A stretch of 51,921 nucleotides of DNA from Thermoanaerobaculia bacterium. GTDB taxonomy: Bacteria > Acidobacteriota > Thermoanaerobaculia > Multivoradales > UBA5704. A program made the translations under genes and the position numbers. The stretch's first letter is position 1. Each line of letters begins with the position of its first letter. The stretch is from positions 1 to 51,921 of the forward strand of contig DATHUD010000178.1 of the NCBI GenBank assembly GCA_035462575.1. Reading direction: 5' to 3'. Below the pieces are notes generated by a model. It was not told the DNA's origin, ran no database searches, and saw nothing but the letters and a program-made list of their open reading frames with translations. Below, one piece after another: positions 10,906 to 51,630 of this stretch.

Positions 10906-13050
<2,145 letters not shown>

Positions 13051-15988: not shown

Positions 15989-16238
15989 GGGATCTCCCTC
16001 CGGCAGGTCGCCCGGGGCCACCGTGGCCGCCAGCGCCTGCCCTAACTCCAAGAGTGCTCCAGGCGGCCTTTCGGGTGAGGAATCTCTTAAAGAAGCAGAC
16101 GAGGGGTCTTGCGTGTAGCTCTTGCAAATAGCCCCCTGCCCGCTTCTGCGATTCTTTTTTTCCTCTTCCGGTCTCCCCCACGGGCCGCCAGGGTGCGCCT
16201 CCTCCTTTTCCCGGCAACCGGGAGGGGGCTCCGGAGCG

Positions 16239-16254
16239 TGGCTTGCATCTTGCA
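16239..16254 (+). promoter_or_regulatory. Sigma-54 (-24/-12) type promoter candidate
   Basis: TGGCTTG-CATC-TTGCA matches the TGGCACG-N4-TTGCA spacing exactly (GG at 16240-41, GC at 16252-53). It lies 36 nt upstream of the GTG at 16290. Confidence 0.4.
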
Positions 16255-16289
16255 CAAGGCACCGATTGCCACGTGAGGGTCTTTCGAGA

Positions 16290-17474: not shown

Positions 17475-18639
17475 CGCGGTTCCGACCGGGCAGTCCGGTG
17501 CCGCTACCAAGCCGGACCTGGTCTGCCTGTCCCACCTGCGGTGGGACTTCGTCTATCAGAGACCCCAGCACCTGATGAGCCGCTTCGCGCGCGACCGGCG
17601 GGTCTTCTTTGTCGAAGAGCCGGTCTTCGGAGACGGCCCGAAGCGCCTCGATGTGAGCGAACGGCCCGGCGGGGTCCGCGTCGCGATGCCTCACCTGCCG
17701 CACGGCCTCACCGCCTTCGAGGTGGAGGCGGCCCAGGCCGAGTTGACTTCCCTCCTGCTCGAAGAGCAGGGCGTTTCCGACTACGTCCTCTGGTACTACA
17801 CGCCGATGGCCGTGCCCTTCACCGGGCACCTGGCTCCCCGGGCCGTGGTCTACGACTGCATGGACGAGCTGTCGCTCTTCAGGGGCGCCCCCAAAGAGCT
17901 TCTGGATCGCGAAGCCCGGCTCCTCGAGAGCGCGGACCTGGTTTTCACCGGCGGGCAGAGCCTCTACGAGGCCAAGCGCGATCGCCACCCGGCCGTCCAC
18001 GCCTTCCCGAGCAGCATCGACGTCGAGCACTTCGCCCAGGCGAGGAACGGCATCCCCCACCCCGCCGACCAGAGGGGGCTCCCGCGCCCGCGGCTCGGCT
18101 ACTTCGGGGTGATCGACGAGCGGATCGACCTCGACCTCCTTGCGGCCGTGGCCGAGGCCCGGCCCGACTGGCAGATCGTCCTGGTCGGCCCCGTCGTCAA
18201 GATCGATCCGGCCACCCTGCCGCGCCGGGACAACCTCCACTACCTCGGAATGAAGCCCTACGCCGAGCTGCCGGCCTACCTCGCCGGCTGGGACGTGGCG
18301 CTCATGCCGTTCGCGAGAAACGAGTCCACCCGGTTCATCAGCCCCACCAAGACGCCGGAATACCTGGCCGGTGGGCGGCCCGTGGTGTCGACCTCGATCC
18401 GCGACGTGGTGCGCCCCTACGGCGAGCTGGAGCTGGTCGCGATCGCCGACAAGCCCGGAGAGTTCGTGGCCGCGGTCGAGTGGGCCTTCGAGACCCTGGG
18501 TCCCGAGCGGCCCGGCCGCGCCCCCTGGCTCTCCCGCGTGGACGAGCACCTCTCCCACGGGTCGTGGACCAGAACCTGGCAGAAGATGTCCGACCTCATC
18601 GAGCAGGCGGTCGCCGCACGCGCGGCCTCCTCGCGGTGA
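17461..18639 (+). CDS. GT-B fold glycosyltransferase (GT4/family 1 type)
   Basis: 392 aa from MPLSDAV. It carries LVCLSHLRWDFVYQRPQHLM and FISPTKTPEYLAGGRPVVST (E-x7-E-like region). The ATG at 17461 overlaps the hydrolase 3' end by 14 nt. Confidence 0.8.
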   Translation: MPLSDAVPTGQSGAATKPDLVCLSHLRWDFVYQRPQHLMSRFARDRRVFFVEEPVFGDGPKRLDVSERPGGVRVAMPHLPHGLTAFEVEAAQAELTSLLLEEQGVSDYVLWYYTPMAVPFTGHLAPRAVVYDCMDELSLFRGAPKELLDREARLLESADLVFTGGQSLYEAKRDRHPAVHAFPSSIDVEHFAQARNGIPHPADQRGLPRPRLGYFGVIDERIDLDLLAAVAEARPDWQIVLVGPVVKIDPATLPRRDNLHYLGMKPYAELPAYLAGWDVALMPFARNESTRFISPTKTPEYLAGGRPVVSTSIRDVVRPYGELELVAIADKPGEFVAAVEWAFETLGPERPGRAPWLSRVDEHLSHGSWTRTWQKMSDLIEQAVAARAASSR

Positions 18640-18742
18640 GCCCTCTTTGAAAAAGAAAAAGAAAAAAACTCCCTGATGGGCCCGACGGTGGGTTCACCGC
18701 TCCGAGCTACTTGCTGGGATTTACTCGAAAGGAGCCGGTTAG

Positions 18743-19939
18743 ATGTTCGACTACATGATCGTGGGCGCGGGTTTCGCCGGGAGCGTTCTCGCCGAGCGGC
18801 TGGCGCGGGGCTCCGGGAAGAAGGTTCTTCTCGTCGACCGGCGTGCTCACATCGGCGGCAACGCTTATGACTGCTACGACGATGCGGGGATCCTGATCCA
18901 TAAATACGGCCCCCACATCTTCCATACCAATTCCCGGGAAGTCTTCGAGTACCTCTCGAGCTTCACCCGCTGGCGTCCCTACGAGCACCGGGTGCGGGCG
19001 AGCGTGGACGGCCAGCTCGTGCCGATCCCGATCAACCTGGACACCATCAACAAGCTTTACGGGCTGAGCTTGAACAGCATGGAGGTCGAGAAGTTCTTCG
19101 AGTCGGTCGCCGAAAAGGTGGAGACCATCCGCACCTCGGAAGACGTGGTCGTCTCCAAGGTCGGCCGCGAGCTCTACGAAAAGTTCTTCCGCGGCTACAC
19201 GAGGAAGCAGTGGGGCCTGGACCCTTCGCAGCTCGACGCCATGGTCACCGCCCGCGTGCCCACGCGCACCAACCGCGACGACCGCTATTTCGGCGACACC
19301 TACCAGGCCATGCCGCTCCGCGGTTACACGCGGATGTTCGAGAACATGCTCGACCACCCGAACATCAAGATCCTCTTGAACACCGACTACCGGGAGGTCG
19401 TGGGGGACATCCCTTACCAGAAGCTGATCTATACCGGTCCCGTGGACGAGTACTTCGACTTCCGTTATGGGAAGCTCCCGTACCGGTCTCTCAAGTTCGA
19501 GCACGAAACGGTGAACGAGGAGCAGGTGCAGCCGGTGGCCGTGATCAACTACCCCAACGAGCACCTCTACACCCGGGTGACCGAGTTCAAGCACCTGACC
19601 GGCCAGGAGCACAAGAAGAGCAGCGTGGTCTACGAATATCCGATGTCCGAGGGGGACCCGTACTACCCCGTGCCGCGGCAGGAGAACGCCGAGCTCTACA
19701 AGAAATACCAGGCACTGGCCGAGGGCACGCCGGACGTCCACTTCGTGGGCCGGCTCGCCACCTACAAGTACTACAACATGGACCAGGTGGTGGCCCAGGC
19801 GCTCGCGGTCTACGCCCGCATGATCGGCCAGAAGCGCGCCGAAGCCACGCGCACCACCCTGACTGCGCCCCGCAACCGCCCGACCGCCGTCGCCGCGCCT
19901 GAAGAGGCCGTGGTTGCCGCGGGGAGGAAGGGAGCGTAG
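18743..19939 (+). CDS. glf: UDP-galactopyranose mutase
   Basis: 398 aa, MFDYMIVGAGFAGSVLAERLA...GPHIFHTN...YTRKQWG...YPNEHLYTRVTEFKHLTGQ...GRLATYKYYNMDQVVAQAL. An AAGGAG SD lies 6 nt upstream of the ATG at 18743. Confidence 0.95.
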   Translation: MFDYMIVGAGFAGSVLAERLARGSGKKVLLVDRRAHIGGNAYDCYDDAGILIHKYGPHIFHTNSREVFEYLSSFTRWRPYEHRVRASVDGQLVPIPINLDTINKLYGLSLNSMEVEKFFESVAEKVETIRTSEDVVVSKVGRELYEKFFRGYTRKQWGLDPSQLDAMVTARVPTRTNRDDRYFGDTYQAMPLRGYTRMFENMLDHPNIKILLNTDYREVVGDIPYQKLIYTGPVDEYFDFRYGKLPYRSLKFEHETVNEEQVQPVAVINYPNEHLYTRVTEFKHLTGQEHKKSSVVYEYPMSEGDPYYPVPRQENAELYKKYQALAEGTPDVHFVGRLATYKYYNMDQVVAQALAVYARMIGQKRAEATRTTLTAPRNRPTAVAAPEEAVVAAGRKGA

Positions 19940-19945
19940 GAAATT

Positions 19946-20026
19946 TGTAGGGGCGCCCCTGCGTGGGCGCCCTGCTCACTCCAGCCTTTCCCCCACCCAG
20001 GGCGGCCACATAGGGCCGCCCCTACA
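19946..20026. repeat. Composite REP-like palindromic element between the convergent glf and halogenase genes
   Basis: Outer inverted arms are TGTAGGGGCG (19946-19955) and CGCCCCTACA (20017-20026). Inside are the self-complementary GGGGCGCCCC (19950-19959) and GGGCGCCC (19965-19972). A hairpin GGGCGGCC-acatag-GGCCGCCC lies at 20000-20021. Confidence 0.6.
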
Positions 20027-20057
20027 TTAAACCGCCCTGGGTGTCGGGCCTGCTGTT

Positions 20058-21632
20058 TTACGCCGCCACCAGGGCTTCGGTCCGCAACTGCCTCAAATAT
20101 TCGACCTGCGAGGGGAGCGTTGCGACCATCCGCTGGGTCTTCTCGCGCAGGGCCTGGAAGGCGGCGAGCGCGTTGGTGTCGTCCAGGTGATCGAGGGCCG
20201 GCAGGCTTCTCTGCGGGTGGTAGTTGAGCCCGAGCAGCATCACGGAGTACGAGTAGGACTCGAAGCCGTGATAGGTCGGATTGATGTTCTTGGCGTTCGG
20301 CAGGCGGTGCTTCCAGATCTCCAACCGCTCCTTCAAATCCGGCGAGATCGCGAGATCCTTGACCGCCCGCCAGAATTCCGTGTCGGTCCGCTCGGTCGTG
20401 CAGTAGTGGAGGATGAGGAAGTCGCGGACGCCGTCGATGCCTTCCGCGATCAGACGGTTGTAGCTCCGGACCATCTCCTGGTCGATGGCGTCGCCGGGGA
20501 GATGGCTGACCAGCTCCTCGATCCCGTGCTGGATGAAGAAGATGCCCGTCGATTCGAGAGGCTCGACGAAGCCGCTCGACAGGCCGATCGCGACACAGTT
20601 CTTCACCCACGAGTTGCGGCACCGGCCGATCCGCATCTTGATGTGGTTGGCCCGCAGCGACTCCGCGGCAGGCCCGAGGTGGCGGCGGAACTCGCGCTCC
20701 GCCTCGTCCTTCGAAAGGAACGCGCTCGAATAGACGTATCCCGTCCCGGTCCGTCCATAGAGAGGGATGTCCCAGACCCAGCCGGCGCTCAAGGCGGTGG
20801 CGGTCGTGTACGGGTTGATGCCCTCGGCCGCGATGTCCTTCGGGATCTGCATCGCGATCGCGCTGTCGCAGAGGAGCGAATCGGAGAACGGGATGAACGG
20901 CTCGCCGAGCGCCTGGTTGATCAGCAGGCCGCGGAAGCCGGTACAGTCGACGAACAGGTCGCCCCGGATGGGCCCGTGCGCCGCGGTGACGACGTGATCG
21001 ATGGCGCCGTCCTCCCGGAGCTTGACCTCGTTGACCTCGTCGACGACCTGGCGGACGCCGCGCGCCATCGCGTAGCCCTTTAAGTACTCGGCGAGGAGGC
21101 TGGCGTCGAACTGGTAGGCATAGGGGTACTGCACCTTATGGTCTGAAAGGAAGCTGTTCTTGGGCTTGCCGCCGCCGCCGAAGAAGTCCTGGACCTGCTC
21201 GTCGAAGACCCGGCCGTCGTAGAACCGGGGCGAGCGCTTCGCTTCGCAGAGAGCCGGGATGCTGAAGCAGGCCTGGTCGAAAGCCTCCTCGTGCCGCTTG
21301 AGCTTGAGCCACCACTCGCCCATGTTGTAGCCGTCGACCGTCTCGTACCGCTGGAACGGGTGGTAGAAGTGGGCGCCGTCGTTGCGCCAGTTGGCGAATT
21401 TGATGGCGAGCTTGTAGGTGGCGTTGCAGCCCGGCATCCAGTCCTGCTCTTCGAGCCCGAGGAAGTCGAAGAAGAGCTTGATGGTGCTGAAGGTCGCCTC
21501 TCCGACGCCGACCGTCTTGATGGTGGCCGACTCGACGAGGGTTACATTGACGCTGGGAGCTGCCTTCTTGAGATAGGAAGCGGTCATCCAACCCGCCGAG
21601 CCACCGCCCACGATAACGACACTCTTGGCCAT
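20058..21632 (-). CDS. Flavin-dependent tryptophan halogenase (PrnA/RebH-type, free-substrate class); regiochemistry not predictable
   Basis: 524 aa from MAKSVVIVGGGSAGWMTASYL (GxGxxG). It carries GVGEAT, the catalytic-Lys region ATYKLAIKFANW, the WxWxIP motif GWVWDIPL and the catalytic Glu region SGFVEPLESTGIFF. The ATG at 21630-21632 has a GGAGGG SD. Confidence 0.85.
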   Translation of the reverse strand: MAKSVVIVGGGSAGWMTASYLKKAAPSVNVTLVESATIKTVGVGEATFSTIKLFFDFLGLEEQDWMPGCNATYKLAIKFANWRNDGAHFYHPFQRYETVDGYNMGEWWLKLKRHEEAFDQACFSIPALCEAKRSPRFYDGRVFDEQVQDFFGGGGKPKNSFLSDHKVQYPYAYQFDASLLAEYLKGYAMARGVRQVVDEVNEVKLREDGAIDHVVTAAHGPIRGDLFVDCTGFRGLLINQALGEPFIPFSDSLLCDSAIAMQIPKDIAAEGINPYTTATALSAGWVWDIPLYGRTGTGYVYSSAFLSKDEAEREFRRHLGPAAESLRANHIKMRIGRCRNSWVKNCVAIGLSSGFVEPLESTGIFFIQHGIEELVSHLPGDAIDQEMVRSYNRLIAEGIDGVRDFLILHYCTTERTDTEFWRAVKDLAISPDLKERLEIWKHRLPNAKNINPTYHGFESYSYSVMLLGLNYHPQRSLPALDHLDDTNALAAFQALREKTQRMVATLPSQVEYLRQLRTEALVAA

Positions 21633-21644
21633 GTCAAAGCCCTC

Positions 21645-21703
21645 CCCCAAAGACAAAAAGGAATAGATGAGAGGAAGGCCCGCCCGGGAGGACCGGCTTC
21701 CTC
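21645..21703 (-). terminator. Terminator/attenuator-like hairpin between the monooxygenase and halogenase genes
   Basis: The 7-bp outer stem is GAGGAAG (21671-21677) / CTTCCTC (21697-21703) with a GC-rich interior. On the minus strand it is followed by TCATCTATTCCTTTTTGTCTTTG. Confidence 0.35.
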
Positions 21704-21764
21704 CCTCACCGAAGTGGTGAGATTCAGTCTCTGAGTGCTTGAGGCCCGCCAAAGCGGGACAAGC

Positions 21765-23234
21765 TCAAGATTTCGCCACCGGCTCGCTCACGCCGACTCC
21801 GGCAGGCTCTTCGGTCGCCTCGAGCTCGGGGAGGGGGACGGCGACCACCGTGGGGGCCGCCTTGCGCCCCTGGGCGAGGCGGGCGGCGCGGCGGTTGGCG
21901 AGGGCGGTCTTGATCCGGACCTGGAGGGAGACGGCCCCGAGCACGAGGTCCAGCCCCAGCCAGCGGGCGATCCGCTCCTGGCGGCGGTGGCGCTCCACGC
22001 ACTCGGCGTAGGGAAGGGTGCTGTGGGAGACCATGGTGTAGAGCGGCACGGAGTGCTGGCGGAAGAGGCGGTTCAGGAAGATCGAGGTGGTCTTCCGGGC
22101 GGTCACGAGGGGCCGCCGCACGGTGTCGCGCAGCTCGTCGAAATTGTCGATCGAGAGCTGGGCGAGGATGTCCGTGTTGGGCTTCCGGAGCGCCTGGAAC
22201 TCGCGGAACAGGGCGGTCCAGTTGCTCTCGCCGTAGCGGTCGAGCAGGCGGTTCAACGTGGAGGCGTCCTCGAAGGCGGCGTTCATGCCCTGGCCGTAGA
22301 AGGGGACGACCGAGTGGGCGGCGTCGCCGATCAGGAGAACTTTGTCTTTGTAGTGCCAGAGCGAGGTGCGGACGGTGATGAACTCGGAGATGGGGCGGGT
22401 CTTGAACTCCTCGACGGCGTTCGGCATGTAGGGCAGGACGTCTCCGAAGTGGGTCTCGAAGAGGTCCAGGATGTCGCGGTCGGTCTTCATGGCGTCGAAG
22501 CTGTGCCGGCCTTCGAAGGGGAGCACGCAGACGCCGCAGAGGGAGCCGTCGAAGTTGGGCAGGGCGAAGAGCAGGTGGTCGCCGCACGGCCAGATGTGGA
22601 GGGCGTGGTGGTCCATGGGGGGCAGGCCGGGGGCGTCGGCGCGGATGGTGATCTCCTTGTAGCCCCAGGGGAGGTAGTCCTGCCGGTAGTCGGCCCGCTC
22701 GCGGCGCTGCAGGAGCTGGCGGACGATCGAGTAGGCGCCGTCCGCGCCCACGACCAGGTCGGAGGTGAAGCGGGTCTCCTCGCCGGTCCGGGTGTTGTGG
22801 AACATGGCGGTCGCGGTCTCCTTGTCGAGGCCCACGCAGCGCTGGTTGAAGTGGAAGTGGGCGTTCGGCTCCTTCTCGACGGCGTTCAGGAGAACGGCGT
22901 TCAGGTCGTTGCGCGAGAAGGAGTGGATGACCTCCTGGTCGTTCTTGCCGTAGGGCTGGTAGACGACCGTGCCCTTGCCCGAGTGGACGGCGCGGCCGCG
23001 CAGGGGGACGGTGATGGTCGACTGGACCTCCTCTTCGAGGCCGAGCTCGCGCAGGGCGGCCAGGCCCCTTTCGGCGAGGGTGAGCTTGATCGACCGGCCG
23101 ACCTCGACGGGCTCACGGCGCAGGTCGCCGCGCAGCTCGAAGAGGTGGACCTCGTAGCCGCGGCGGGCGAGGTAGATGCCGAGGATCGAGCCGCCGAGGC
23201 CGGCTCCGACGATGGTGATTTTGGGGACTGCCAT
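21765..23234 (-). CDS. kmo: FAD-dependent kynurenine 3-monooxygenase-like aromatic hydroxylase
   Basis: 489 aa starting ITIVGAGLGGSILGIYLARRGYEVHLFE. It carries GRSIKLTLAERG, VVGADGAYSIVRQ, ALHIWPCGDHLLFALPNFDGS, LIGDAAHSVVPFYGQGMNAAFED and RKPNTDILAQLSIDNF. From memory it is collinear with bacterial KMO. The ATG is at 23232-23234. Confidence 0.75.
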   Translation of the reverse strand: MAVPKITIVGAGLGGSILGIYLARRGYEVHLFELRGDLRREPVEVGRSIKLTLAERGLAALRELGLEEEVQSTITVPLRGRAVHSGKGTVVYQPYGKNDQEVIHSFSRNDLNAVLLNAVEKEPNAHFHFNQRCVGLDKETATAMFHNTRTGEETRFTSDLVVGADGAYSIVRQLLQRRERADYRQDYLPWGYKEITIRADAPGLPPMDHHALHIWPCGDHLLFALPNFDGSLCGVCVLPFEGRHSFDAMKTDRDILDLFETHFGDVLPYMPNAVEEFKTRPISEFITVRTSLWHYKDKVLLIGDAAHSVVPFYGQGMNAAFEDASTLNRLLDRYGESNWTALFREFQALRKPNTDILAQLSIDNFDELRDTVRRPLVTARKTTSIFLNRLFRQHSVPLYTMVSHSTLPYAECVERHRRQERIARWLGLDLVLGAVSLQVRIKTALANRRAARLAQGRKAAPTVVAVPLPELEATEEPAGVGVSEPVAKS

Positions 23235-26200: not shown

Positions 26201-29200
26201 AGCTCGCCGTAGGTGAGGGTCCGGCCCGGGGCGATCACGGCGGCGCGCTCCGGGTGCCGGGCCGCCTGGGCGAGAAACGGCTCGTGGAGGAGGCCCCGGG
26301 GAACCGGCGCGGCCGTGGCGTTGACCTCCTCGCGCCGGGCGAGCTGGGCGGCCGGGATCGATGCCGTGACCGGTCCCGTCCAGACGTCCGGGTCGGCCAG
26401 CCGCTCGAGGAGCTCCCGGTAGGCGGCGAACAGGCCGTCCAGCATCCCGGCGGGGAAGAGGGCCTGGACGGCGTCCCAGTTGAAGACGAGGGCGCCGCCC
26501 CGCTCGCTCACCTGGTGGTCCAGGAGCACCTGCGGGGTCTGGGAGATGGCATAGACCGGCTCCACGGGCAGCGCCGGGGCGGGGGGGCCCTCGCGCGCGG
26601 CTTCGAGGCCGAGCGTGCTGGTGAAGACGACCGGCGAGGCCGGCCGGGCGAGCGCGCCCTGCGAGCGCGCCGTCTCGCGCAGCACCTCGACGCCGCTCAC
26701 GTGGCGGTGGTCGAGATCGCTCCAGAGCTGCCGTTGGACCGCCTGCGCCCGCCGCTCGAAGCTCTCCCCGGGCGAGCGCTCGACCTCCAGGAGGATCGTG
26801 GAGGTGAAGTCCCCCACGAGCTTCTCGACGTCCGGGTGGAGGGGGAGCCGGTTGAACAGGGTGAGCACGATCGTGAAGCGGGACGTCTTGCTCCAGGTCC
26901 CCAGCACCTCGGAGAAGGCGGCGAGCAGCAGGCCCGACGGGGTGACGCCGGAGCAGAGGGCCCGCTCTTTGAGGCGCGACCACGCTGGAGGTTCGAGCCG
27001 CGCGCTGCGGCGGACGAAGGTCTGCTCGCGGAGCGCTCCGAGACTCTGGGCGAGCGGGAGCTCCGGGCCCGGCGGGAGGGTTTCCAGGCGCCTCTGCCAG
27101 TACTCCCGGGAGCGGCGGAAGGTCTCGGTGTCGCGCCGGGCGATCCCGGCGAGCACGTAGTCGCGGAAGGACAGCTCCAGCGGATCGCCGAGCGGGGCGT
27201 CCGGCTCCGCGTAGGCTTTGAGCAGCTCCCGGGTGAGGAGGCCGAAGCTCCAGGCGTCGGCGATCAGGTAATCGAAGCTGAAAAAGAGGCGGACGCGGCC
27301 CCCCGGCAGAAGGCCGGCGCGGATCTCGAAGAGCGGCCAGCGGTCGATCGCGAGGCTCTGGTGCGACATCCGCTCGCGGCGCTCGGCGAGCCGCGCGGAG
27401 ACCGCCTCGGGCGACTCCCGCCGGAGATCCTCCACCTCGATCCGGTAGGGCGGCACCTCGGGCAGGACCTTCTGCCGCCCGTCGGGGAGGAAGACGGCGC
27501 GCAACATGTCGTGCCGGTCGATCAGCCGCTGCCAGGCCCGCTCCAGCCGCGCGAGGTCGAGCCCCTCGCCTTCGAGCTCGACGTAGCGGTGCGAGGTCAC
27601 GTGGCCGAGCTCCAGCTCGCCCGTGCGCCCCACCCAATAAGCCTGCTGGATGTCGGTCAACGGGAACGGCAGGTGGCGGTCCGCCGGGACGGGCCGCAGG
27701 GGCTCGAAGGAAGCCGCGCCGCCGCTCTCCCGGCTTTCGAGGAGGACGGCCAGATCGGCGACCGTGGGCGCCTCGAAGAGCGAGCGCAGGCCGATCTCCC
27801 GGCCGAGCGCCTCCTCGATGCGGAAGACGAGCCGGGTCGCCAGAAGCGAGTGGCCGCCCAGCGCGAAGAAGTCGTCGTGCACCCCCACCGTCTCGCGGCC
27901 GAGCACCTCGCGCCAGAGGGCGGCCAGCGCCTCTTCGAGCGGTGTCCGCGGCGCGACGGCCGTGGTCTCCGGGGATTCGGCCGGCTCGGGCAGAGCGCGG
28001 CGGTCCACCTTGCCGTTGGGGGTGAGCGGCAGGCGTTCCAGGATCACGAAGGCGGACGGCACCATGGGCTGGGGGAGCCTCTCGCGGATGCCTTCCCGCA
28101 GCGCGGCGGCGGTGACCTCGCGGCCGGGGACCACGTAGGCGACCAGCCGCTCCTCTCGGGCCACGACGACCGCTTCGCGAACGCCGGGCAACGAGGCGAG
28201 GACCGCCTCGATCTCCCCGGGCTCGATCCGGTAGCCCCGGATCTTCACCTGGAGGTCGGCGCGGCCGTGGAAGTCCACCTCGCCGTTCGGGAGATAGCGG
28301 CCGAGGTCGCCCGTCCCGTAGAGGTCCGCGACGAACCGCTCCCGCGTCAGCTCCGGGTCGTTCAGATAGCCGGCGGCGAGATACGGCGTGCGGATCGCGA
28401 TCTCGCCCAGCTCGCCCACGCCGGCCAGCTCTCCTGCCGGATTGCGCACGAGGAGCTGGACCCCGTCGATCCCCCGGCCGAGCGGGATTCTCTCCCGCTC
28501 GGGCTCCTGGACGACGTGATACCCCATGCCCTGGGGCGTTTCGGTCGCGCCGTAGTAGGAGACGACGGTACACCCGGGAGCCAGGCGCCGCAGCCGCTCG
28601 AGGCTCCGCCGGGTCAGCACGTCGCCGCCGAAGAAGGCGTAGCGGAGCGCCGGAAGCTCCTCGCCGCGCGTCTCCGTGAGGATCTCGCTCATCGCGGGCG
28701 TCAGGTGGGCAACCGTGATTTCTTCCCCGCGCATCCAGCGGGCGAGGCGGCCCGCCGCCAAAGCTTCGGGGTCGGGGATGCAGAGGGTGGCTCCGGCCGT
28801 GAGCGGCGTCAGGAGATCGCGCAGCAGCGGATCGTGGGCGAGCCCCGAGAGCAGGCTGAACCGGTCGGATTCGCCGAGGCCGAACCGCTCGCGGTGCCAC
28901 GCCAGGAAGTGCGAGAGCGGGCGGTGCGGGCCCGCGACCGCCTTGGGCGTGCCGGTCGAGCCCGAGGTGAAGGCCACGTAGGCGAGGTCGTCCGGCCCGG
29001 TGACGACGTCGGGAGCGGGCAGATCCGGCAGGGCTGCCGGCAGATCGAGCCGCGGGCAGCCTTCCAGAGATTCCGGCAAGGAGCCGGCCGCCTCCATCCG
29101 CAGCAGGGCTTTCGGTGCGGCAATCCGGAAGATCTCGGCGAGCCGCGCGGCCGGGTAGGCGGAGTCGAGGATCGTGAAGGCCGCGCCCGCCCGGAGCGTG

Positions 29201-32200
29201 CCGAGCACGGCCAGGGCGAGCGGAGCGCTCCGATGGGCGTAGATCGCGACCCGGTCTCCTTTCCGGACACCCTGCGCCGCGAGCCAGCCGGCGAGCCGGC
29301 GGCTCTCTACATCCAGCTCCCCGTAGGTCCAGGCTCCGGAGACCGCCGTCCGCTCCGGATGCCGTCGCGCCCGCTCGGCAAACATTTCGTGCGCGGCGTC
29401 TTCCCAGACCGGCGGCAGCGGGGCTTTGGGATCGGGCAGCAGACCCCGGGCGCGCTCCGTCACGAGCGACAGGCTCCCCACGGGGGCTTCGGGACGCGCG
29501 AGCGCCTGCTCCAGGAAAAGCTCGTACTGCGCGAGCAGCTCCTCCATGCGCGCCGCATCGAACAGGTCGGCGTTGTAGACCAGCTCGATCCGGAGCGTCT
29601 CCCCGGCTTCGGCCACGTAGAAGGTCATGTCGAACTTCGACGGGAGGGCCGGGAGGGCGACCGCCTCCAGGGTGAGCCCCGGCAGGCGCAGCTCGGCCGG
29701 CGGCAGGTTGAGCAGATTGAACATCACCTGGAAAAGCGGCGTGCGGGAGAGGTCGCGCTGCTGTGGCAGCTCGGCGAGCAACGCTTCGAAGGGCACGTCC
29801 TGGTGCGAGAACGCGCCGAGCGTGACCTCGCGCACGCGGGCCACCAGCTCCGCGAAGCCCGGGGAGCCGGAGAGGTCCGTGCGGAGGACGAGGGTGTTCA
29901 GGAAGATCCCGATCAGCCGCTCCGTCTCGACCGTCCGCCGGCCCGCGACGGGCGTCCCCACCAGGACGTCCTCCTGGCCGCTCTGGCGACCGAGGAGCGC
30001 CTTGGCTGCCGCGAGGAGAACCATGAAGAGGGTGGCCCCCCGCTCCCGGGCAAAGGCGCGCAGCCTTCCGGTCGCCGTGGAAGTGAGGACAAGCTCGCGA
30101 TGCCCGCCGCGGAAGGTCTGGACGGCCGGGCGCGGCCGGTCGGCCGGCAGCTCCAGGGGGGCGATCTCGCCTTCCAGCCGTTCGCGCCACCAGGCGAGGT
30201 CCGCCTCGCGGGTCTCCTCGACCGCCTCGCGCTGCCAGACCGCGAAGTCGGCGTACTGGACCGGCAGCTCCGGCAGGGGGGACGGCCGGCCCTGGGAGAA
30301 GGCGTCGTAGAGCGCGGCGATCTCGCGGACGAAGACCCCGACCGACCAGCCGTCGCAGACGACGTGGTGGAAGACGGCGAGGAAGCGGTGGCGGTCCGGC
30401 CCGAGCCGCAGCAGGAGCGCGTCGATCAGGGGACCGCGCGCGAGGTCGAAGCTCCGGCGGGCGTGCTCCGCGGCGATCCGCCCGGCCTCCTCCTCGGGGA
30501 CGTCGATCACGGGCAGGGGGATCTCGAGCGCCGGAAGGATCTTCTGGCGGGGCGCGCCGTCGACCGTGGGGAAGATTGTCCGCAGCGATTCATGCCGGCG
30601 CACCACCTCGGCCAGGGAAGCAGCGAGAGCGTCCCCGCGGAGAGCCCCGCGGATCTCGACCACGCCGGGCATGTTGTAGGTGGGAGCGCCCGGCTCCAGC
30701 CGGTCCAGCACCCAGAGCCGCTCCTGCGAAAACGAGAGGGGGAGGGTCGCGCCCGGCGGGTGCGGGAGCCGAGGGATGGCGAGGCCCGGGCCTCCGCCCC
30801 CCACCTCCGCGGCCAGGGCCTCGACGGTCGTGGCCTCGAACAGCTTGCGCAGCGGCAGGCTCACACCGAAGGCCGCGCGGACCCGGGCGGCGACACGGGT
30901 GGCGAGCAGCGAGTGGCCACCCAGGGCGAAGAAGTCGTCGCGGGCCCCCACCCTCGCGATCCCGAGGACCTCTTCGAAGATCCCGGCGAGAAGCTCCTCG
31001 GCCGGCGTGCGCGGCGCGACGAAGCCGTCCTCCGCGGACACGGCCGGCTCCAGGAGGGCCAGGGCCTTGCGGTCGATCTTGCCGTTGGGCGTCCGGGGCA
31101 GCTCCGGGAGGCTCACCCAGTCGAGGGGCACCATGGCCTCGGGGAGCGTCTCGCGGAGAAACGCGCGCAGAGCGGCGGGTTCGGCCACCCCGGCGACATA
31201 GGCCGCGAGGCGCGCGCCCTCCCGGACGAGGACGACCGCCTGGTCCACGCCGGGATGCCGGGCGAGGGTGGCCTCGATCTCCCCCAGCTCGATCCGCACG
31301 CCGCGGATCTTGACCAGGTGGTCGATGCGGCCGAGAAATTCGAGCCCGTCCGGCCGCCACCGCCCGAGGTCGCCTGTACGGTACAGCCTTGCTCCAGGGA
31401 TGTCCGCAAACGGATCGGGGCCGCAGCGCTCCGCGGTCTCCGCCGGCCGCTCGAAGTAGCCCCGGCCCACCGGCACGCCGCCGATGCAGATCTCGCCGGG
31501 CACTCCCAGGGGAGAGAGCCCGAGGTTGCGGTCGAGCACGAGGAGGCGGGTGTTGTGGATCGCAGAACCGAGCCGGAGGGGCTGCTCCGGCTTCAAGCGA
31601 CGAGCTGTCACATCGATCGTCGCTTCGGTGGGACCGTAGAGATCGACCAGCTCGGCATCCATCGCGCGGAAGAAGCGGTCTCGGACGTCAGCCGTCAGCG
31701 CTTCTCCGCCCAGGAAGACGCGGCGCAGGCCGCGGCAATCTCCCAGCCCTTCGTCGAGGAGATCCCCCAGCATGGAGGGGACCGACTGGAGGATCGTGAT
31801 CCTCTGTGCATGGGCGGCGCGGACGAGCGCCGCGGGATCCCGGTGCTCTCCCGGTCGGGCCATCACCACGGTGCCCCCGACCATCAGGGGCGACCAGAAT
31901 TCCCAGATCGAGGCGTCGAATCCGAAGGGGGCCCTCTGGAGCAACCGGTCGCTGGGCCTGAAGGGAAACGCTTCCTGCAGCCAGAGGAGGTTGTTGACGA
32001 GGGAGCGATGCTCGATCATCACCCCCTTGGGCCTTCCCGTCGAGCCGGAGGTGAAGAGGAGATAGGCCAGGGCGTTGTCCGGAACCGGGAGGTGCAGGGG
32101 CTCCCCGCTCCCCGAGGAGGAGAGCTCCGCGATCCGTTCCCGGTCGAGGACCACCGTGGGCCGGGCGTCCTCGATCATCGCCGCCACGCGCTCGGCCGGG

Positions 32201-33932: not shown

Positions 33933-33936
<4 letters not shown>
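23284..33936 (-). CDS. NRPS 2: C-A(Gln)-T-C-A(Lys2-type, substrate unknown)-T-Cy-A(Cys)-T-LLM (luciferase-like monooxygenase); no TE or R
   Basis: 3550 aa.
- Module 1: C1 has MHHIVSDGWS. A1 is aa ~500-955 (nt ~31072-32439) with code DAWQFGLIDK. T1 is GGHS(1009)L.
- Module 2: C2 has FHHVVCDGWS. A2 is aa ~1520-1990 (nt ~27967-29379) and carries SGLAHDPLLRD in place of FDxS, with code DPRHFGYQGK. T2 Ser is 2030.
- Module 3: Cy is aa 2091-~2520 (nt ~26376-27666) with FPLTDIQQAYWVGR, the DxxxxD motif FDYLIAD at 27256-27273, and QTPQVLLDHQ. A3 is aa ~2574-3044 (nt ~24800-26217) with code DLYNLSLIWK. T3 is GGNS(3094)L.
- LLM is aa 3190-3550 (nt 23287-24369), starting ISFSLFYFASEE. Confidence 0.9.
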
Positions 33937-48230
<14,294 letters not shown>

Positions 48231-48279: not shown

Positions 48280-50553
48280 CTAGATCTCCAGCAGGTACGT
48301 GAACTTCAGGATGACCTCGCGGTCCCCCTCGGACAGGTCGCTGAAGCTGGGCGCGTTCCAGTTCTGGTTGAAGACGATGAACAGGTCGGCCCCGGGCCGG
48401 TAGAGCCAGTTGAACCGGAGGTTGAGCGACAGGAGCTCCGCCAGGTCGTTGTACTGGATGTAGCTGTTGGTAAACAGCGTCGGGCTGAACGAGAGGCCGA
48501 TCCGCTGGCGGACGATGTTCGCGGTGAACGCGCCGCCGGGCAGCTCGATGTCGTTGTAGACCCAGGTGGTGTCGCTGCGCAGGTAGCGGCTCGCCCGGAT
48601 GCCCAGGGTGACCGCGCTGCTCAGGCGGTCGCCGCCGTAGTACTCGCCCGCGAGGACGAAGCCGTCGACCCCGAAGCGGCGGCTGTTGTTTGTCGCGAAG
48701 GTGATTCCCGCGTCGTTGAAGGTGTATTCGCCGGCCGGGACGACCACCCCGGGGCTGATCGAAAACGCGGCGGGGACCCGGTCCACCGTGTGGTCCGCGA
48801 AGACGGAGAACGCATCCTCGCTCTGGAGCCGGAGGCCGAACAGGGTGGCTCCCACCTCGATCGTCTGCGTCTCGTTGTCGAGGTCGGTGATGACGTCGCC
48901 GGTCACCCCGTAGATGTAGTTGCGCACCCGGCCCTGCGTCTTGGGGCGCGGGTTGTAGGTGAACCGGGGCACGTAGCGGCGGATGTCGCTGCGCAGCAGG
49001 AAGCCCGCCGAAGGCTCGTAGCCCTCGTCGATCTGGAGAAAGTCGAAGGCGACCCCCGTCACCGGCCCTTGCCAGGCGGCGCGGGCCCCGCCGGCCCAGC
49101 CGTCCCGGTTCTCGAAGCCGGCGAAGGGGATGTCGGTCGCGCTCCGCGTCACGAAGGCGCTCAGATTGCTGTACCGGTTGGGGTTGTAGTTGAGGTCCAG
49201 GCCGAAGACCTGGTTGGAGATCCCCTCTTCCTGGTCCCGGTTGGTGAAGATCATGCCGATGTTCGAGCGCTGGCCCACGTTGCGCTTGACCCGCACCACC
49301 CCCCAGTTGTCCTCCGGCTGCTCGAAGAAGGGGCTGGGCAGGTCGTAGTTGTCGGTCTGCGCGTCGAGCAGGCCGAAGCTCCAGGGACCCTGCCGGCCGG
49401 TGAGACGCGCACCCCACTCCATCGGCACCACCGTGCCGAAGGGGCTCACGCCGATGCGGCGGGAGAAGAAAGGCTTGAGGAACGGGGTTCCGGGCGGGTT
49501 GAACCCGAACTCGAAGATGCCGGCGTTCTCGAGGAAGAAGTCGCGCTTCTCGGGGAAGAAGAGAGAGAAGCGGGTGAGGTTGATCTGCTGATCGTCCACC
49601 TCGACCTCGGCGAAGTCGGTGTTGTAGGTCAGGTCCAGGGTGGTGGTGCGGGTGAGGCCCCACTTGATGTCGAGGCCGGCCTCAAGGTCGTCGTCCGAGA
49701 CCCTCCCCGTCGGGGTCCGGAAATTCGAGGCCGACCCCACGGCGAACGGCTTGATCCGCAGGTTCAGGCCCGGCTCGGGGCCGCGGATGCCGGTCAGCTC
49801 TCCGGCGAGAGAGACCCGGAACAGGCCCGCCTCGAGCGGTATCGACGCCCAGAAGACCTCCTCGTTCTTGTGCCGGATCAGCCGCCGCACCTGGAGCCCC
49901 CACGTGTCCTGGTTGGGATCGAAGCGCAGCGTGGCGAAGGGGATCTCCATCTCCGCCGACCACCCCTCGGGGGTCCGCTTCCCGACCGCCCGCCAGACGG
50001 CGTCCCACTGGACGTTGAAGTCCCGCCCTTCGTCGGTGACCAGGGCGTCGGTGAAGGCGCCGTTGGGGTTGACCTCGAAGAAGTAGGCGTTCCGGTTGTC
50101 GTTGAAAGTGTCGAGCAGCACGAGCACCGAGTCGTCGCGGAAGAGCGCGCCGTCGCGCTGCATCTCCTCGGCCACGACCGCGCCCGGATCGGAGGCGAGG
50201 GCGCGGATGCCGATGTAGAGCGCGGTGTCGGTGTAGACGACCCGGACTTCGGTCGCCTCCGTGGCCGGCTGTCCAGGATTCGGCTCGCGCTGGATGAAGT
50301 CGGTGCCCGCCTGGGCCTCCTGCCACACCGGCTCGTCCAGGAGACCGTCCAGCTTGATCGGCTCCAGGGCCTTGAGCGCCGCGAGGGACGGCCGCGGCGG
50401 GAGCGGGGCCTGCGGCGGCTGTCCGGGGCGGGGGCCGGGCGGCTGGGCCACCAGGGGAGCTGCCAGGAGGACACCGAGGCAGAGACCGGCCAGGCGTGGA
50501 AACAAGGACGTCGCGCTCGATCTGTACTTTGCCAAAATTCCTCCAGTTCGCAT
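48280..50553 (-). CDS. Outer-membrane protein with an N-terminal CBM9-like domain and a DUF5916-like beta-barrel
   Basis: 757 aa. The signal peptide is MRTGGILAKYRSSATSLFPRLAGLCLGVLLAAPLVAQ. Further motifs are IKLDGLLDEPVWQEA...YIGIRA...NRNAYFFEVNPNG...WSAEMEIPF. Long alternating beta-strand-like sequence runs to the C-terminal LKFTYLLEI. The ATG at 50551-50553 has a GGAG SD. Confidence 0.7.
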   Translation of the reverse strand: MRTGGILAKYRSSATSLFPRLAGLCLGVLLAAPLVAQPPGPRPGQPPQAPLPPRPSLAALKALEPIKLDGLLDEPVWQEAQAGTDFIQREPNPGQPATEATEVRVVYTDTALYIGIRALASDPGAVVAEEMQRDGALFRDDSVLVLLDTFNDNRNAYFFEVNPNGAFTDALVTDEGRDFNVQWDAVWRAVGKRTPEGWSAEMEIPFATLRFDPNQDTWGLQVRRLIRHKNEEVFWASIPLEAGLFRVSLAGELTGIRGPEPGLNLRIKPFAVGSASNFRTPTGRVSDDDLEAGLDIKWGLTRTTTLDLTYNTDFAEVEVDDQQINLTRFSLFFPEKRDFFLENAGIFEFGFNPPGTPFLKPFFSRRIGVSPFGTVVPMEWGARLTGRQGPWSFGLLDAQTDNYDLPSPFFEQPEDNWGVVRVKRNVGQRSNIGMIFTNRDQEEGISNQVFGLDLNYNPNRYSNLSAFVTRSATDIPFAGFENRDGWAGGARAAWQGPVTGVAFDFLQIDEGYEPSAGFLLRSDIRRYVPRFTYNPRPKTQGRVRNYIYGVTGDVITDLDNETQTIEVGATLFGLRLQSEDAFSVFADHTVDRVPAAFSISPGVVVPAGEYTFNDAGITFATNNSRRFGVDGFVLAGEYYGGDRLSSAVTLGIRASRYLRSDTTWVYNDIELPGGAFTANIVRQRIGLSFSPTLFTNSYIQYNDLAELLSLNLRFNWLYRPGADLFIVFNQNWNAPSFSDLSEGDREVILKFTYLLEI

Positions 50554-50898: not shown

Positions 50899-51630
50899 AT
50901 GCAAGATTCTCGATATGAGCTCGAGAAGCTCGTCACCGTGGAGACCTTCAGCACGCCGTGGGAGGCCCAGCTCGCCCGCGCGCGGCTGGAGACGGAGGGG
51001 ATCCACTCCGTCATCGCGGACGAGAACTTCGTCCGCCTCTACTGTGCCCTCTCGAACGCTCTGGGCGGGGTCAAGCTCCAGGTGCGCAAGGAGGACGCCC
51101 CCCGGGCCGCCGAGCTCCTCCAGGACCGCCATCCGATCCCCGAGATCTATCTGGTGACCGAGGAGGATGCGGCTCAGCCCCGCTGCCCCGGCTGCAAGTC
51201 CGACAACCTCGACTTCGAACGCTGGTCCCGCCTCGGCTTCCTCGGCTCGTTGGTGATCCTGGGGGTGCCGCTGCCGATCCCGCGCCGCCGCTGGATCTGC
51301 CGCAACTGCGGAGCGGACTGGAAGGAAGAGGAGATCCCGCAGGCCGCTTTGGAAGAGGCCGCCTTCTCCGGGCCGAGGCGGGGGGCGCTGATCACGGTCG
51401 CCCGCTTCGTCACCCCGTGGGAGGCGCAGCTCGCGAAGAGTCTCCTCGAATCGGACGGCCTCGAGGCCTGCATCGTCGAGGAGCGCCTGCCGCCCGTGAG
51501 CCTGCTTTCGGCTGAGCCGCTCGCGTTGAATCGCGTCGAGGTCCGGGAGGACGACGCCACCCGGGCGCTCGCGATCCTGGCCGAGCTCGAAACCCTGGAC
51601 GACGACGAGGAGCTTCCCGCCTCCGAGTAG
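50899..51630 (+). CDS. Double DUF2007 (putative signal-transducing, PII-like) protein with a central Cys4 zinc ribbon
   Basis: 243 aa with two copies of the TPWEAQLA...L...G(I/L) module (aa ~12-75 and ~165-230). They flank CPGC...CRNC, which surrounds a hydrophobic stretch LGFLGSLVILGVPLPI. Confidence 0.6.
   Translation: MQDSRYELEKLVTVETFSTPWEAQLARARLETEGIHSVIADENFVRLYCALSNALGGVKLQVRKEDAPRAAELLQDRHPIPEIYLVTEEDAAQPRCPGCKSDNLDFERWSRLGFLGSLVILGVPLPIPRRRWICRNCGADWKEEEIPQAALEEAAFSGPRRGALITVARFVTPWEAQLAKSLLESDGLEACIVEERLPPVSLLSAEPLALNRVEVREDDATRALAILAELETLDDDEELPASE

What the first reader, a model, noticed from the sequence alone, without database searches (positions are those of the whole stretch)
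20058..23234. Trp halogenase plus KMO, but no Trp/Kyn-type A domain and no TDO or formamidase
The halogenase has every hallmark of free-L-Trp halogenases: GxGxxG, the catalytic Lys in KLAIKF, WxWxIP and the Glu in FVEPLESTG. The neighbouring FAD enzyme is collinear with kynurenine 3-monooxygenase. Together they imply a chloro- and/or 3-hydroxy-kynurenine (or derived hydroxyanthranilate/quinoline) building block, by analogy to 4-Cl-kynurenine in taromycin and 3-hydroxykynurenine-derived units in actinomycin-type pathways. None of the seven A-domain codes is Trp- or Kyn-like. Tryptophan 2,3-dioxygenase and kynurenine formamidase are not in the window. The only unassigned loading site is the Lys2-type A domain of NRPS 2 module 2, which is therefore the candidate entry point. 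Alternatively, the pair makes a separate small molecule.
Basis: inference. Interest (0 to 1): 0.65.

Follow-up and report, generated by a model that had tools for sequence, protein, structure and literature searches.

The report
Tryptophan halogenase beside NRPS-linked kynurenine monooxygenase
Comparison with related genomes suggests they are recent neighbours rather than a dedicated pair feeding this peptide synthetase. The monooxygenase belongs to an unusual clade that often sits next to peptide synthetase genes and has an altered substrate pocket.

Summary
Observation confirmed. Window 20058-21632(-) encodes a flavin-dependent Trp halogenase of the AbeH/PyrH/SttH/Tar14 clade, with a PyrH/AbeH-type F-E-S loop that predicts C5 halogenation. 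Window 21765-23234(-) encodes a KMO-family enzyme with all four kynurenine amino-acid anchor residues. No TDO is in the window, and none of the seven A-domain codes looks Trp- or Kyn-like.

- The 25-kb NRPS pair is an indel. In a relative with 92% identical KMO, DUF5916-KMO-halogenase are contiguous and under purifying selection.
- Four halogenase orthologues (71-89% identical) are solitary genes, with no KMO or NRPS within 10 kb.
- KMO orthologues (61-86% identical) never have a halogenase. They lie beside varied NRPS genes in 9 of 14 contexts.
- The KMO clade is sister to actinomycete NRPS-linked KMOs. Three of nine ring-pocket residues are changed (A56T, F238V/T, M373L), plus N54K.
- The "Lys2-type" A domain belongs to a widespread family and is absent from the other KMO-adjacent NRPS pieces.

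The parts
20058..21632 (-). Flavin-dependent tryptophan halogenase, 524 aa, AbeH/PyrH clade. Predicted C5 regioselectivity from the F-E-S loop.
   Evidence: Pfam PF04820 at E=2e-145. PDB matches SttH, AbeH, Tar14, PyrH and Th-Hal at 604-623 bits. The loop TYHGFESYSY matches AbeH HYHGFESYSY and PyrH YYHGFETYSW, whereas SttH and Tar14 have YYHGLPPYSY (PMC5071727).
21633..21764 (-). 132-nt spacer between KMO and halogenase, with a GC-rich hairpin followed by a U-rich tract. It may be a terminator or attenuator.
   Evidence: The fold has dG -65.2 kcal/mol and z = -2.3. The spacer is about 90% conserved in L001. The consensus terminator scan did not call it.
21765..23234 (-). KMO-family FAD monooxygenase, 489 aa. 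The amino-acid anchor R81, Y95, N364, Y399 is conserved and the ring pocket is remodelled (K50, T52, V237, L368).
   Evidence: PDB KMO matches at E=5e-80. The role of the pocket residues comes from PMC5477544.
23284..33936 (-). NRPS 2: C-A(Gln)-T-C-A(DPRHFGYQGK)-T-Cy-A(Cys)-T-luciferase-like monooxygenase domain.
   Evidence: Pfam. Codes. L095, whose KMO is 95% identical, has the same LLM-KMO junction.
27937..29439 (-). A domain of NRPS 2 module 2, with an AHDP core and code DPRHFGYQGK (the 'Lys2-type' domain).
   Evidence: It is an ordinary NRPS A-domain fold. It belongs to a widespread DPRH family.
33933..48230 (-). NRPS 1: FAAL-T-(C-A-T)x4.
   Evidence: Pfam. The FAAL matches PDB 7r7e at E=2e-169, plus FadD32 and FadD28. 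It is collinear with the L010 NRPS at 53% identity.
48280..50553 (-). DUF5916/CBM9 protein, a syntenic anchor. In L001 its stop codon lies 26 nt from the KMO start.
   Evidence: Pfam. L001 and L002 match at 86% identity. Junction alignment.
50899..51630 (+). DUF2007 protein, a second syntenic anchor of the KMO locus in relatives.
   Evidence: Pfam. It lies beside KMO in L004, L010, L096, L099, L100, L103 and L104.
18743..19939 (+). UDP-galactopyranose mutase, convergent with the halogenase. It marks the downstream boundary.
   Evidence: Pfam GLF. The same neighbour occurs in L001 at 94% identity.

Best explanation
The locus holds two genuine Trp-branch tailoring enzymes that are probably not a dedicated pair.

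(1) The KMO-like enzyme belongs to a Thermoanaerobaculia-wide clade of specialised-metabolism KMOs. It keeps the residues that hold the alpha-amino-acid end of L-kynurenine. Three of the nine residues lining the aromatic ring are fixed to other amino acids. Inference: it makes a 3-hydroxy-kynurenine-type o-aminophenol amino acid from kynurenine or a ring-substituted kynurenine. The kynurenine would have to come from a TDO and a formamidase encoded elsewhere. The gene rides next to varied NRPS genes in this lineage. How its product is used by them is not shown.

(2) The halogenase is a free-L-Trp halogenase of the AbeH/PyrH clade, predicted to chlorinate C5. Its orthologues are widespread, mostly solitary genes. 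It came to lie next to KMO only in the window's immediate lineage.

(3) The FAAL-primed seven-module NRPS pair is a 25-kb cassette sitting in the DUF5916-KMO spacer. It has no A domain that can be tied to Trp or kynurenine.
For: Enzyme identities.

Regioselectivity loop: with PMC5071727 and PMC11840605.

Halogenase orthologues at 89, 87, 81 and 71% identity sit in unrelated, NRPS-free and KMO-free contexts.

KMO contexts:
- NRPS is adjacent in 9 of 14 distinct Thermoanaerobaculia contexts: upstream, downstream or on both sides, and of at least two NRPS types.
- No halogenase appears in any context except L001-L003 and HKV10279/HKV10280.

NRPS indel:
- L001 and L002 come from two sequencing runs and show DUF5916-26 nt-KMO. 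The window's two breakpoints map into that spacer.
- L095 (95% identical KMO) keeps the NRPS2-LLM-KMO junction.
- dN/dS between the window and L001 is 0.22 for KMO and 0.15 for the halogenase.

KMO phylogeny: the Thermoanaerobaculia clade plus a Pyrinomonadaceae NRPS-PKS-embedded KMO is sister (100/99) to a clade of actinomycete NRPS-linked KMOs plus a Longimicrobium KMO. NRPS is adjacent for 16 of the 25 rows in this combined clade and for 1 of the other 71. Terriglobia TDO-KMO operons lie in the other half of the tree.

KMO residues:
- R/Y/N/Y anchors are invariant in 96 of 96 sequences.
- In the Thermoanaerobaculia clade, A56T is 17/17, F238V/T 17/17, M373L 16/17 and N54K 17/17. All 71 KMOs outside the NRPS-linked clades (Bacteroidota, Terriglobia, Planctomycetota and others) have the canonical residues. 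Pocket roles are from PMC5477544.

Two KMO-clade paralogues carry accessions 282 apart (HEY9422427, HEY9422709), probably from one MAG. That fits a cluster accessory better than a single-copy housekeeping gene.
Against: - KMO and halogenase are co-directional and 132 nt apart. The adjacency and the spacer are conserved in at least three related assemblies. Some functional coupling cannot be excluded.
- An enlarged KMO ring pocket (F238 to V) would fit a halogenated kynurenine.
- Both gene families are abundant in the same class. They could cooperate without being adjacent.
- KMO persists without an adjacent NRPS in 5 of 14 contexts (L001, L004, L096, L099, L118). That weakens the claim that it is an NRPS accessory.
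- Only 10 kb on each side of each relative was visible.
Confidence: 0.5

Rival explanations
1. The halogenase makes chloro-Trp. An unlinked TDO and formamidase convert it to chloro-kynurenine. The KMO hydroxylates C3. The resulting chloro- and/or 3-hydroxy-kynurenine is loaded by the Lys2-type A domain of NRPS 2 module 2.
For: - Gene order is NRPS2-KMO-halogenase on one strand, with 49-nt and 132-nt gaps.
- A 5-halogenase leaves kynurenine C3 free. Taromycin is a precedent for the route from chloro-Trp to chloro-kynurenine to NRPS (PMC12615548).
- The KMO clade is NRPS-linked and its ring pocket is enlarged.
- The DPRHFGYQGK pocket has Gly at two positions plus polar R, H, Y and Q. It could hold a large polar side chain (inference).
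- Longimicrobium and Thermoanaerobaculia both have DPRH-type A domains and KMOs from the wider NRPS-associated part of the tree.
Against: - The NRPS cassette is absent from a close relative that retains KMO and halogenase.
- Halogenase orthologues are solitary.
- KMO orthologues lie beside NRPSs of other composition, and no DPRH-type A domain was seen among about 35 scorable A domains.
- DPRH-type A domains are widespread, including Tumebacillus and Oxalobacteraceae. Their other subtype is nearly identical to the aminoadipate code of Lys2 as I recall it.
- There is no TDO, formamidase or flavin reductase in the window.
Confidence: 0.13
2. KMO and halogenase together make a separate small molecule, independent of the NRPS. 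An example would be a 5-chloro-3-hydroxykynurenine-derived pigment, chelator or redox metabolite. Export might involve the conserved neighbours DUF5916 or MFS_3.
For: - The DUF5916-KMO-halogenase block is intact and under purifying selection where the NRPS is missing.
- KMO keeps MFS_3 and/or DUF5916 as neighbours in many relatives, and DUF5916 even in Longimicrobium.
Against: - The halogenase is absent from every KMO context below 90% identity, and KMO is absent from every examined halogenase context below 90% identity.
- A hairpin plus U-tract separates the two genes.
- The window has no TDO, formamidase or aminotransferase.
Confidence: 0.15
3. The KMO is a primary-metabolism enzyme, working in Trp catabolism or de novo NAD synthesis. 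It merely sits in a rearrangement-prone, BGC-rich locus. The halogenase is unrelated to it.
For: - KMO is very widespread in the class at 60-92% identity.
- It has a conserved syntenic backbone of DUF2007, DUF5916 and MFS_3.
- It persists without NRPS in 5 of 14 contexts.
- An unchecked AI note reports a kynureninase-like gene elsewhere in this genome.
Against: - No TDO lies next to any Thermoanaerobaculia KMO, whereas 15 of 15 Terriglobia-type Acidobacteriota KMOs in the sample have TDO directly upstream.
- The clade groups with actinomycete NRPS-linked KMOs.
- Three ring-pocket residues that are invariant in 71 other KMOs are replaced.
- Two paralogues are probably present in one MAG.
Confidence: 0.15

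Closest known systems
AbeH and PyrH (Trp 5-halogenases); SttH, Th-Hal and Tar14 (Trp 6-halogenases)
   Same: The alignments are full-length at 604-623 bits. The FAD motif, WxWxIP motif, catalytic Lys and catalytic Glu are present. The F-E-S loop is identical to AbeH and close to PyrH F-E-T.
   Different: The active-site string QFPYAYHF, shared by all four aligned structures (SttH, AbeH, Tar14, PyrH), reads QYPYAYQF here. It reads QYPYAYHF in 89 of the 120 closest homologues. No flavin reductase and no Trp-using biosynthetic genes are nearby. Orthologues are solitary.
Kynurenine 3-monooxygenase (P. fluorescens, human, rat; EC 1.14.13.9)
   Same: The protein is collinear over about 425 residues, including C-terminal domain 3. 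The equivalents of R84, Y98, N369 and Y404, and of pocket residues I106, L213, P318, F319 and G321, are conserved.
   Different: A56T, F238V/T, M373L and N54K are fixed in the clade. No TDO is linked. NRPS genes are frequent neighbours.
Taromycin 4-chlorokynurenine supply (Tar14 plus a dedicated TDO and formamidase feeding Kyn-specific A domains)
   Same: A free-Trp halogenase of the same clade lies next to a lipopeptide NRPS.
   Different: There is no TDO, formamidase or flavin reductase, and no Trp- or Kyn-type A domain. A KMO is present, which to my knowledge taromycin lacks. The halogenase lies outside the NRPS indel.
Actinomycete NRPS-linked KMOs (L009, L016, L028, L044, L053, L059; possibly pyrrolobenzodiazepine/sibiromycin-like)
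   Same: They are the main members of the sister clade in the KMO tree. They are NRPS-adjacent, often with an MFS_3-type transporter. L059 also carries a Trp halogenase.
   Different: The pocket substitutions differ (A56G, L226H, I224V). Five of the six loci share an A domain with code DAGDMGHVCK that is absent here. L059 has a C-A-T-reductase NRPS.

Membership tests
Flavin-dependent free-tryptophan halogenase (AbeH/PyrH/SttH clade) | N-terminal GxGxxG FAD motif and WxWxIP motif | tested here: met
   VVIVGGGSAGW and GWVWDIPL are present and align with the same motifs in SttH, AbeH, Tar14 and PyrH.
Flavin-dependent free-tryptophan halogenase (AbeH/PyrH/SttH clade) | Catalytic Lys and Glu | tested here: met
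   YKLAIKF aligns with PyrH YKLGIRF. FVEPLESTG is identical in all aligned structures. The residue roles are from established knowledge of PrnA and PyrH.
Flavin-dependent free-tryptophan halogenase (AbeH/PyrH/SttH clade) | Closer to free-Trp enzymes than to carrier-protein-dependent or peptide halogenases | tested here: met
   AbeH-clade members score 604-623 bits and the PrnA/RebH/Thal clade 395-433 bits. MibH scores 215 bits. No pyrrole or phenol halogenase appears at E<=1e-10, and the CmlS model scores 21 bits.
Flavin-dependent free-tryptophan halogenase (AbeH/PyrH/SttH clade) | Trp-site strings QFPYAYHF and PYYHGxxxYS (PMC5071727) | tested here: inconclusive
   The strings here are QYPYAYQF and PTYHGFESYS. 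The first has two substitutions. The xxx position reads FES, as in the 5-halogenase AbeH.
Flavin-dependent free-tryptophan halogenase (AbeH/PyrH/SttH clade) | Halogenation of free L-Trp with a flavin reductase partner | not testable with these tools
   This needs an enzyme assay. No reductase gene is in the window.
Kynurenine 3-monooxygenase | Class A flavoprotein monooxygenase fold with KMO-specific C-terminal domain | tested here: met
   FAD_binding_3 hits at E=2.5e-32. The alignment to rat and P. fluorescens KMO runs to residues 425-428.
Kynurenine 3-monooxygenase | Residues binding the amino-acid end of L-Kyn (Pf R84, Y98, N369, Y404) | tested here: met
   The equivalents are R81, Y95, N364 and Y399. 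They are invariant in 96 of 96 aligned KMOs.
Kynurenine 3-monooxygenase | Canonical ring pocket (A56, I106, L213, F238, P318, F319, H/F/Y320, G321, M373) | tested here: not met
   Six of nine are kept. A56T, F238V and M373L are fixed in the clade. All 71 KMOs outside the NRPS-linked clades are canonical.
Kynurenine 3-monooxygenase | Pathway partners (TDO, formamidase, kynureninase) in the genome | not testable with these tools
   None is in the window or in any Thermoanaerobaculia locus. An unchecked note mentions a kynureninase-like gene elsewhere.
Taromycin-type chlorokynurenine supply to an NRPS | Dedicated TDO and formamidase plus Trp- or Kyn-selective A domains in the cluster | tested here: not met
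   No TDO in six frames. No cyclase or TDO Pfam hit. The seven codes are Ala-like, Val-like (twice), Glu-like, Gln, DPRH-type and Cys. The code assignments are from memory.
3-hydroxyanthranilate-primed NRPS (pyrrolobenzodiazepine/actinomycin type) | Kynureninase plus an aryl-acid A domain lacking Asp235 as starter | tested here: not met
   The starter is a FAAL. All seven A domains keep Asp235 and Lys517. No kynureninase is in the window.

The most novel reading that the evidence does not exclude
Thermoanaerobaculia run a lineage-wide halogenated-kynurenine branch. The widespread Trp 5-halogenase makes 5-chloro-Trp. The clade-specific KMO has an opened and repolarised ring pocket (F238V/T, A56T, N54K, M373L) and has become a 5-chlorokynurenine 3-hydroxylase. 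The resulting 5-chloro-3-hydroxykynurenine is a new NRPS building block, possibly loaded by the DPRH-G-x-Q A-domain subtype, or a secreted redox or chelating metabolite. On this reading, the adjacency in this window exposes a link that is otherwise hidden by dispersed genes.
Probability: 0.12. Interest if true: 0.7.

Novelty: new variant of a known kind. Interest (0 to 1): 0.4.

Why it matters
No natural product from Thermoanaerobaculia has been characterised, as far as I know. This work shows that a simple guilt-by-adjacency reading of a compact cluster can mislead. The NRPS is a movable cassette, and the two tailoring genes have separate evolutionary histories. It also points to two tractable enzyme families. 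One is a KMO clade that keeps the amino-acid anchor but has a re-lined ring pocket and a recurrent NRPS association. The other is an abundant clade of solitary PyrH/AbeH-like Trp halogenases. If the KMO clade proves to act on substituted kynurenines, it would add a new o-aminophenol amino-acid branch to non-ribosomal peptide chemistry. It would also give a new KMO specificity for biocatalysis.

Tried and rejected
- The requested search for kynA and kynB in the genome, and any genome-level co-occurrence test, could not be done.
It returned mostly distant KMOs (40-47% identical) and only one Thermoanaerobaculia locus. These became the outgroups for the tree.
- I first favoured the idea that KMO is plain housekeeping, because homologues are so numerous. 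I downgraded it after the tree, the pocket comparison and the lack of TDO linkage.
- A literature search for the code string DPRHFVMRAK found nothing. A search for KMO, halogenase and NRPS together found one irrelevant paper. A Thermoanaerobaculia BGC search gave nothing specific.
- One PDB search was run in the wrong frame and repeated. It showed only generic A-domain similarity. No Lys2 structure was available, so the 'Lys2-like' label rests on my memory of the Lys2 code.
- Two Pfam calls on L059 failed on frame errors.
- No tRNA or repeat marks the NRPS indel ends.
- The consensus terminator scan did not call the KMO-halogenase spacer hairpin.
- The accession comparison for genome-level KMO/halogenase co-occurrence was too sparse to be informative beyond the HKV pair.
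The first reproduced its known code DAWTIAAICK. The second found 18 real TDOs at 37-42% identity.

Full report
**What is there**

The window is a GC-rich contig (65-74% GC). It is a whole 51,921-bp NCBI contig. Close homologues of its genes are named Thermoanaerobaculia, a class of Acidobacteriota. Five co-directional genes lie on the minus strand:
- a DUF5916/CBM9 protein (48280-50553);
- NRPS 1 (33933-48230; FAAL-T-(C-A-T)x4);
- NRPS 2 (23284-33936; C-A-T-C-A-T-Cy-A-T-luciferase-like domain);
- the KMO-like gene (21765-23234);
- the halogenase (20058-21632).

A convergent glf gene follows. The rest of the window is ordinary housekeeping: Ppk, Ppx, a histidine kinase, AlkZ, TPR and a GT4-glf operon. 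It holds no TDO, cyclase-type formamidase, kynureninase or flavin reductase. A tblastn search with a TDO query found 18 real TDOs in other loci and none in the window.

**The halogenase**

Pfam Trp_halogenase hits at E=2e-145. The five best solved structures are SttH, AbeH (8FOV), Tar14 (6NSD), PyrH and Th-Hal, at 604-623 bits in single full-length alignments. The PrnA/RebH/Thal/BorH group scores 395-433 bits. The peptide halogenase MibH scores 215 bits. No pyrrole or phenol carrier-protein-dependent halogenase is among the hits, and the CmlS model scores 21 bits.

PMC11840605 defines exactly this AbeH clade, containing Trp-5 and Trp-6 enzymes, and identifies 8FOV and 6NSD.

PMC5071727 shows that the only active-site difference between PyrH (C5) and SttH (C6) is F451-E452-T453 versus L460-P461-P462. 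Swapping the three residues shifts regioselectivity. The window protein reads TYHGFESYSY. That is identical in the three positions to the 5-halogenase AbeH and unlike the L-P-P of SttH and Tar14. Of the 120 closest homologues, 92 carry F-E-x at these positions, 2 carry F-D-P, and 26 did not match the search pattern. I therefore predict C5 halogenation by inference.

One caveat applies. The conserved string QFPYAYHF is QYPYAYQF here. Substrate preference may differ in detail.

A 5-halogenase gives 5-chloro-Trp and hence 5-chlorokynurenine. The position mapping follows from 6-chloro-Trp giving 4-chlorokynurenine in taromycin.

**The KMO-like enzyme**

It aligns over residues 5-428 with rat, human and P. 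fluorescens KMO (E=5e-80 to 4e-72). The VioC model is far below its cutoff.

[quoted passage not shown] - the amino group bonds to Y98;
- Y404 contacts the substrate directly, and N369 takes part in acid binding;
- the ring sits in a pocket of F238, P318, F319, H320, G321, A56, I106, L213 and M373.

Mapping through the HMMER alignment gives R81, Y95, N364 and Y399 in the window protein. All four are invariant in 96 of 96 KMOs that I aligned.

The ring pocket is different. The 71 KMOs outside the NRPS-linked clades come from Bacteroidota, Terriglobia, Planctomycetota and other phyla. All of them have A56, F238 and M373, and also N54. The 17 Thermoanaerobaculia sequences have T (17/17), V or T (17/17), L (16/17) and K (17/17) at these positions. 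The enzyme is thus a KMO in fold and amino-acid anchoring, but it fails the canonical ring-pocket test. It may take kynurenine or a ring-substituted kynurenine.

**Are the two genes a pair?**

Comparative contexts say probably not.

Halogenase homologues at 69-92% identity are abundant in this class. Four with long contigs, at 89, 87, 81 and 71% identity, sit in four unrelated neighbourhoods. None has a KMO or an NRPS within 10 kb.

KMO homologues at 60-95% identity are equally abundant. I obtained 14 distinct informative contexts, counting the window. A halogenase is present only in the window and in L001-L003 (92% identical KMO). An NCBI MAG adds one more case, where the halogenase and a partial KMO carry consecutive accessions HKV10279.1 and HKV10280.1. 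The KMO relatives at 86% identity and below (L118, L004, L096 and the rest) have no halogenase. The adjacency is therefore recent.

The 132-nt spacer folds into a strong hairpin followed by a U-rich tract and is conserved in L001. This is compatible with separate transcription but does not prove it.

**Is either gene tied to this NRPS?**

In L001 and L002, assembled from two sequencing runs, the DUF5916 gene (86% identical) ends 26 nt before the KMO start. Aligning the window's two junctions shows that both ends of the 25-kb NRPS1-NRPS2 block fall inside that short spacer. L095, with a 95% identical KMO, keeps the NRPS2-LLM-KMO junction. The cassette is therefore polymorphic among close relatives.

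Between the window and L001, KMO (dN/dS 0.22) and the halogenase (0.15) are both under purifying selection. Both genes thus have a function that does not depend on an NRPS at this site.

**KMO and NRPS genes**

KMO as a clade is nevertheless associated with NRPS genes. NRPS lies within 10 kb in 9 of 14 contexts, in several arrangements:
- upstream, as a Ser-rich NRPS ending in a Cy-like domain plus an MFS_3 transporter (L005, L088, L089, L097);
- downstream, as a FAAL-NRPS homologous to NRPS 1 (L010, L087);
- on both sides (L090, L102);
- between DUF5916 and KMO (the window).

The five NRPS-free contexts (L001, L004, L096, L099, L118) retain a backbone of DUF2007, DUF5916 and/or MFS_3.

In a maximum-likelihood tree of 96 KMOs, the Thermoanaerobaculia clade groups with a Pyrinomonadaceae KMO. 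That KMO is embedded in an NRPS-PKS cluster whose MOx domain is 57% identical to the window's LLM domain. This group is sister (100/99 support) to a clade of NRPS-linked actinomycete KMOs plus a Longimicrobium KMO. NRPS is adjacent for 16 of the 25 rows in the combined clade and for 1 of the other 71.

All 15 Terriglobia-type Acidobacteriota KMOs lie in the other half of the tree, each with TDO directly upstream. Two KMO-clade paralogues have accessions 282 apart, probably from one MAG.

Taken together, this favours a specialised-metabolism KMO over a housekeeping one. The NRPS-free contexts keep the housekeeping reading alive.

**The proposed entry point**

I recomputed the Stachelhaus codes by aligning to GrsA-PheA.

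A region-restricted search found this domain type to be common. There are 82 AHDP/DPRH domains in 72 of the 120 best NRPS hits, from Thermoanaerobaculia, Longimicrobium, Tumebacillus and Oxalobacteraceae. They fall into two subtypes:
- DPRH[F/L]VxRAK, nearly the Lys2 aminoadipate code as I recall it;
- DPRH[F/C/Y]G[F/Y]Q[A/G]K, which includes the window's domain.

None of the roughly 35 scorable A domains in the other KMO-adjacent NRPS fragments is of this type. Only 10 kb per side was visible there, so absence is weak evidence. Nothing links this domain to aromatic kynurenine-type substrates. By family resemblance, an aliphatic polar or dicarboxylic amino acid is more likely. This is inference.

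**Verdict**

The chemistry is feasible and the KMO is plausibly NRPS-related. However, the halogenase-KMO pair, its dedication to this NRPS and the Lys2-type entry point all lack comparative support.

My best reading (about 0.5):
- a specialised, NRPS-associated KMO with a remodelled ring pocket;
- an independently conserved Trp 5-halogenase that recently moved next to it;
- a mobile NRPS cassette between DUF5916 and KMO.

Rivals:
- a separate halogenated-kynurenine small molecule, 0.15;
- a housekeeping KMO in a plastic locus, 0.15.

Noticed in passing
L059 (Virgisporangium ochraceum) 9905-21266: An actinomycete locus with KMO, a C-A-T-reductase NRPS, an MFS transporter, an O-methyltransferase and a Trp halogenase fragment (63% identical to the window's). 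It may be a halogenated pyrrolobenzodiazepine-like cluster. It is a clearer candidate for a real KMO-plus-halogenase pathway than the window.
   Followed up: partly
L009, L016, L028, L053, L059: Five actinomycete KMO-linked NRPS loci share an A domain with the identical code DAGDMGHVCK. It could be the domain that takes the KMO-derived unit in that clade.
   Followed up: no
window 27937-29439 and proteins P0243-P0362: AHDP/DPRH ('Lys2-like') A domains inside elongation modules are common in NRPSs of Thermoanaerobaculia, Longimicrobium, Tumebacillus and Oxalobacteraceae. They split into a V-x-R-A subtype and a G-[F/Y]-Q-[A/G] subtype. The substrate is unknown.
   Followed up: partly
L005/L006 5212-9963: An NRPS module (Cy-like C, A, T) is fused in one ORF to an MFS_3 transporter, directly upstream of KMO. 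In L088, L089, L097 and L102 the same MFS_3 is a separate gene. In several of these loci the last A domain looks decayed.
   Followed up: no
L012 (Longimicrobium sp.) 679-4546; L005, L089, L096, L118: KMO-DUF5916 adjacency recurs in both gene orders within Thermoanaerobaculia and also in a Gemmatimonadota genome. This hints at a functional link between KMO and this putative outer-membrane protein.
   Followed up: no
L118 268-1446: A phage-type integrase lies 1.5 kb upstream of an 85-86% identical KMO. Here KMO is followed rather than preceded by DUF5916. The locus is rearrangement-prone.
   Followed up: no
L091 7877-9565: A second, divergent halogenase-like FAD protein (562 aa) lies divergently next to an 89% identical orthologue of the window's halogenase.
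   Followed up: no
window 3037-4500 (-): An ORF has a FeeM-like N-acyl amino acid synthase domain (E=8e-9). It lies far from the NRPS genes.
   Followed up: no
L007 (Pyrinomonadaceae) 1-21363: An NRPS-PKS cluster with an embedded KMO, an ABC-transporter/M28-peptidase fusion, an HPPD-like dioxygenase and a C-A(MOx)-T module. The MOx domain is 57% identical to the window's terminal LLM domain.
   Followed up: partly
L004 1871-3637: A PatG-like subtilisin protease (Peptidase_S8, PatG_D, PatG_C) lies about 6 kb upstream of an MFS_3-KMO pair. It may mark a cyanobactin-like RiPP locus.
   Followed up: no
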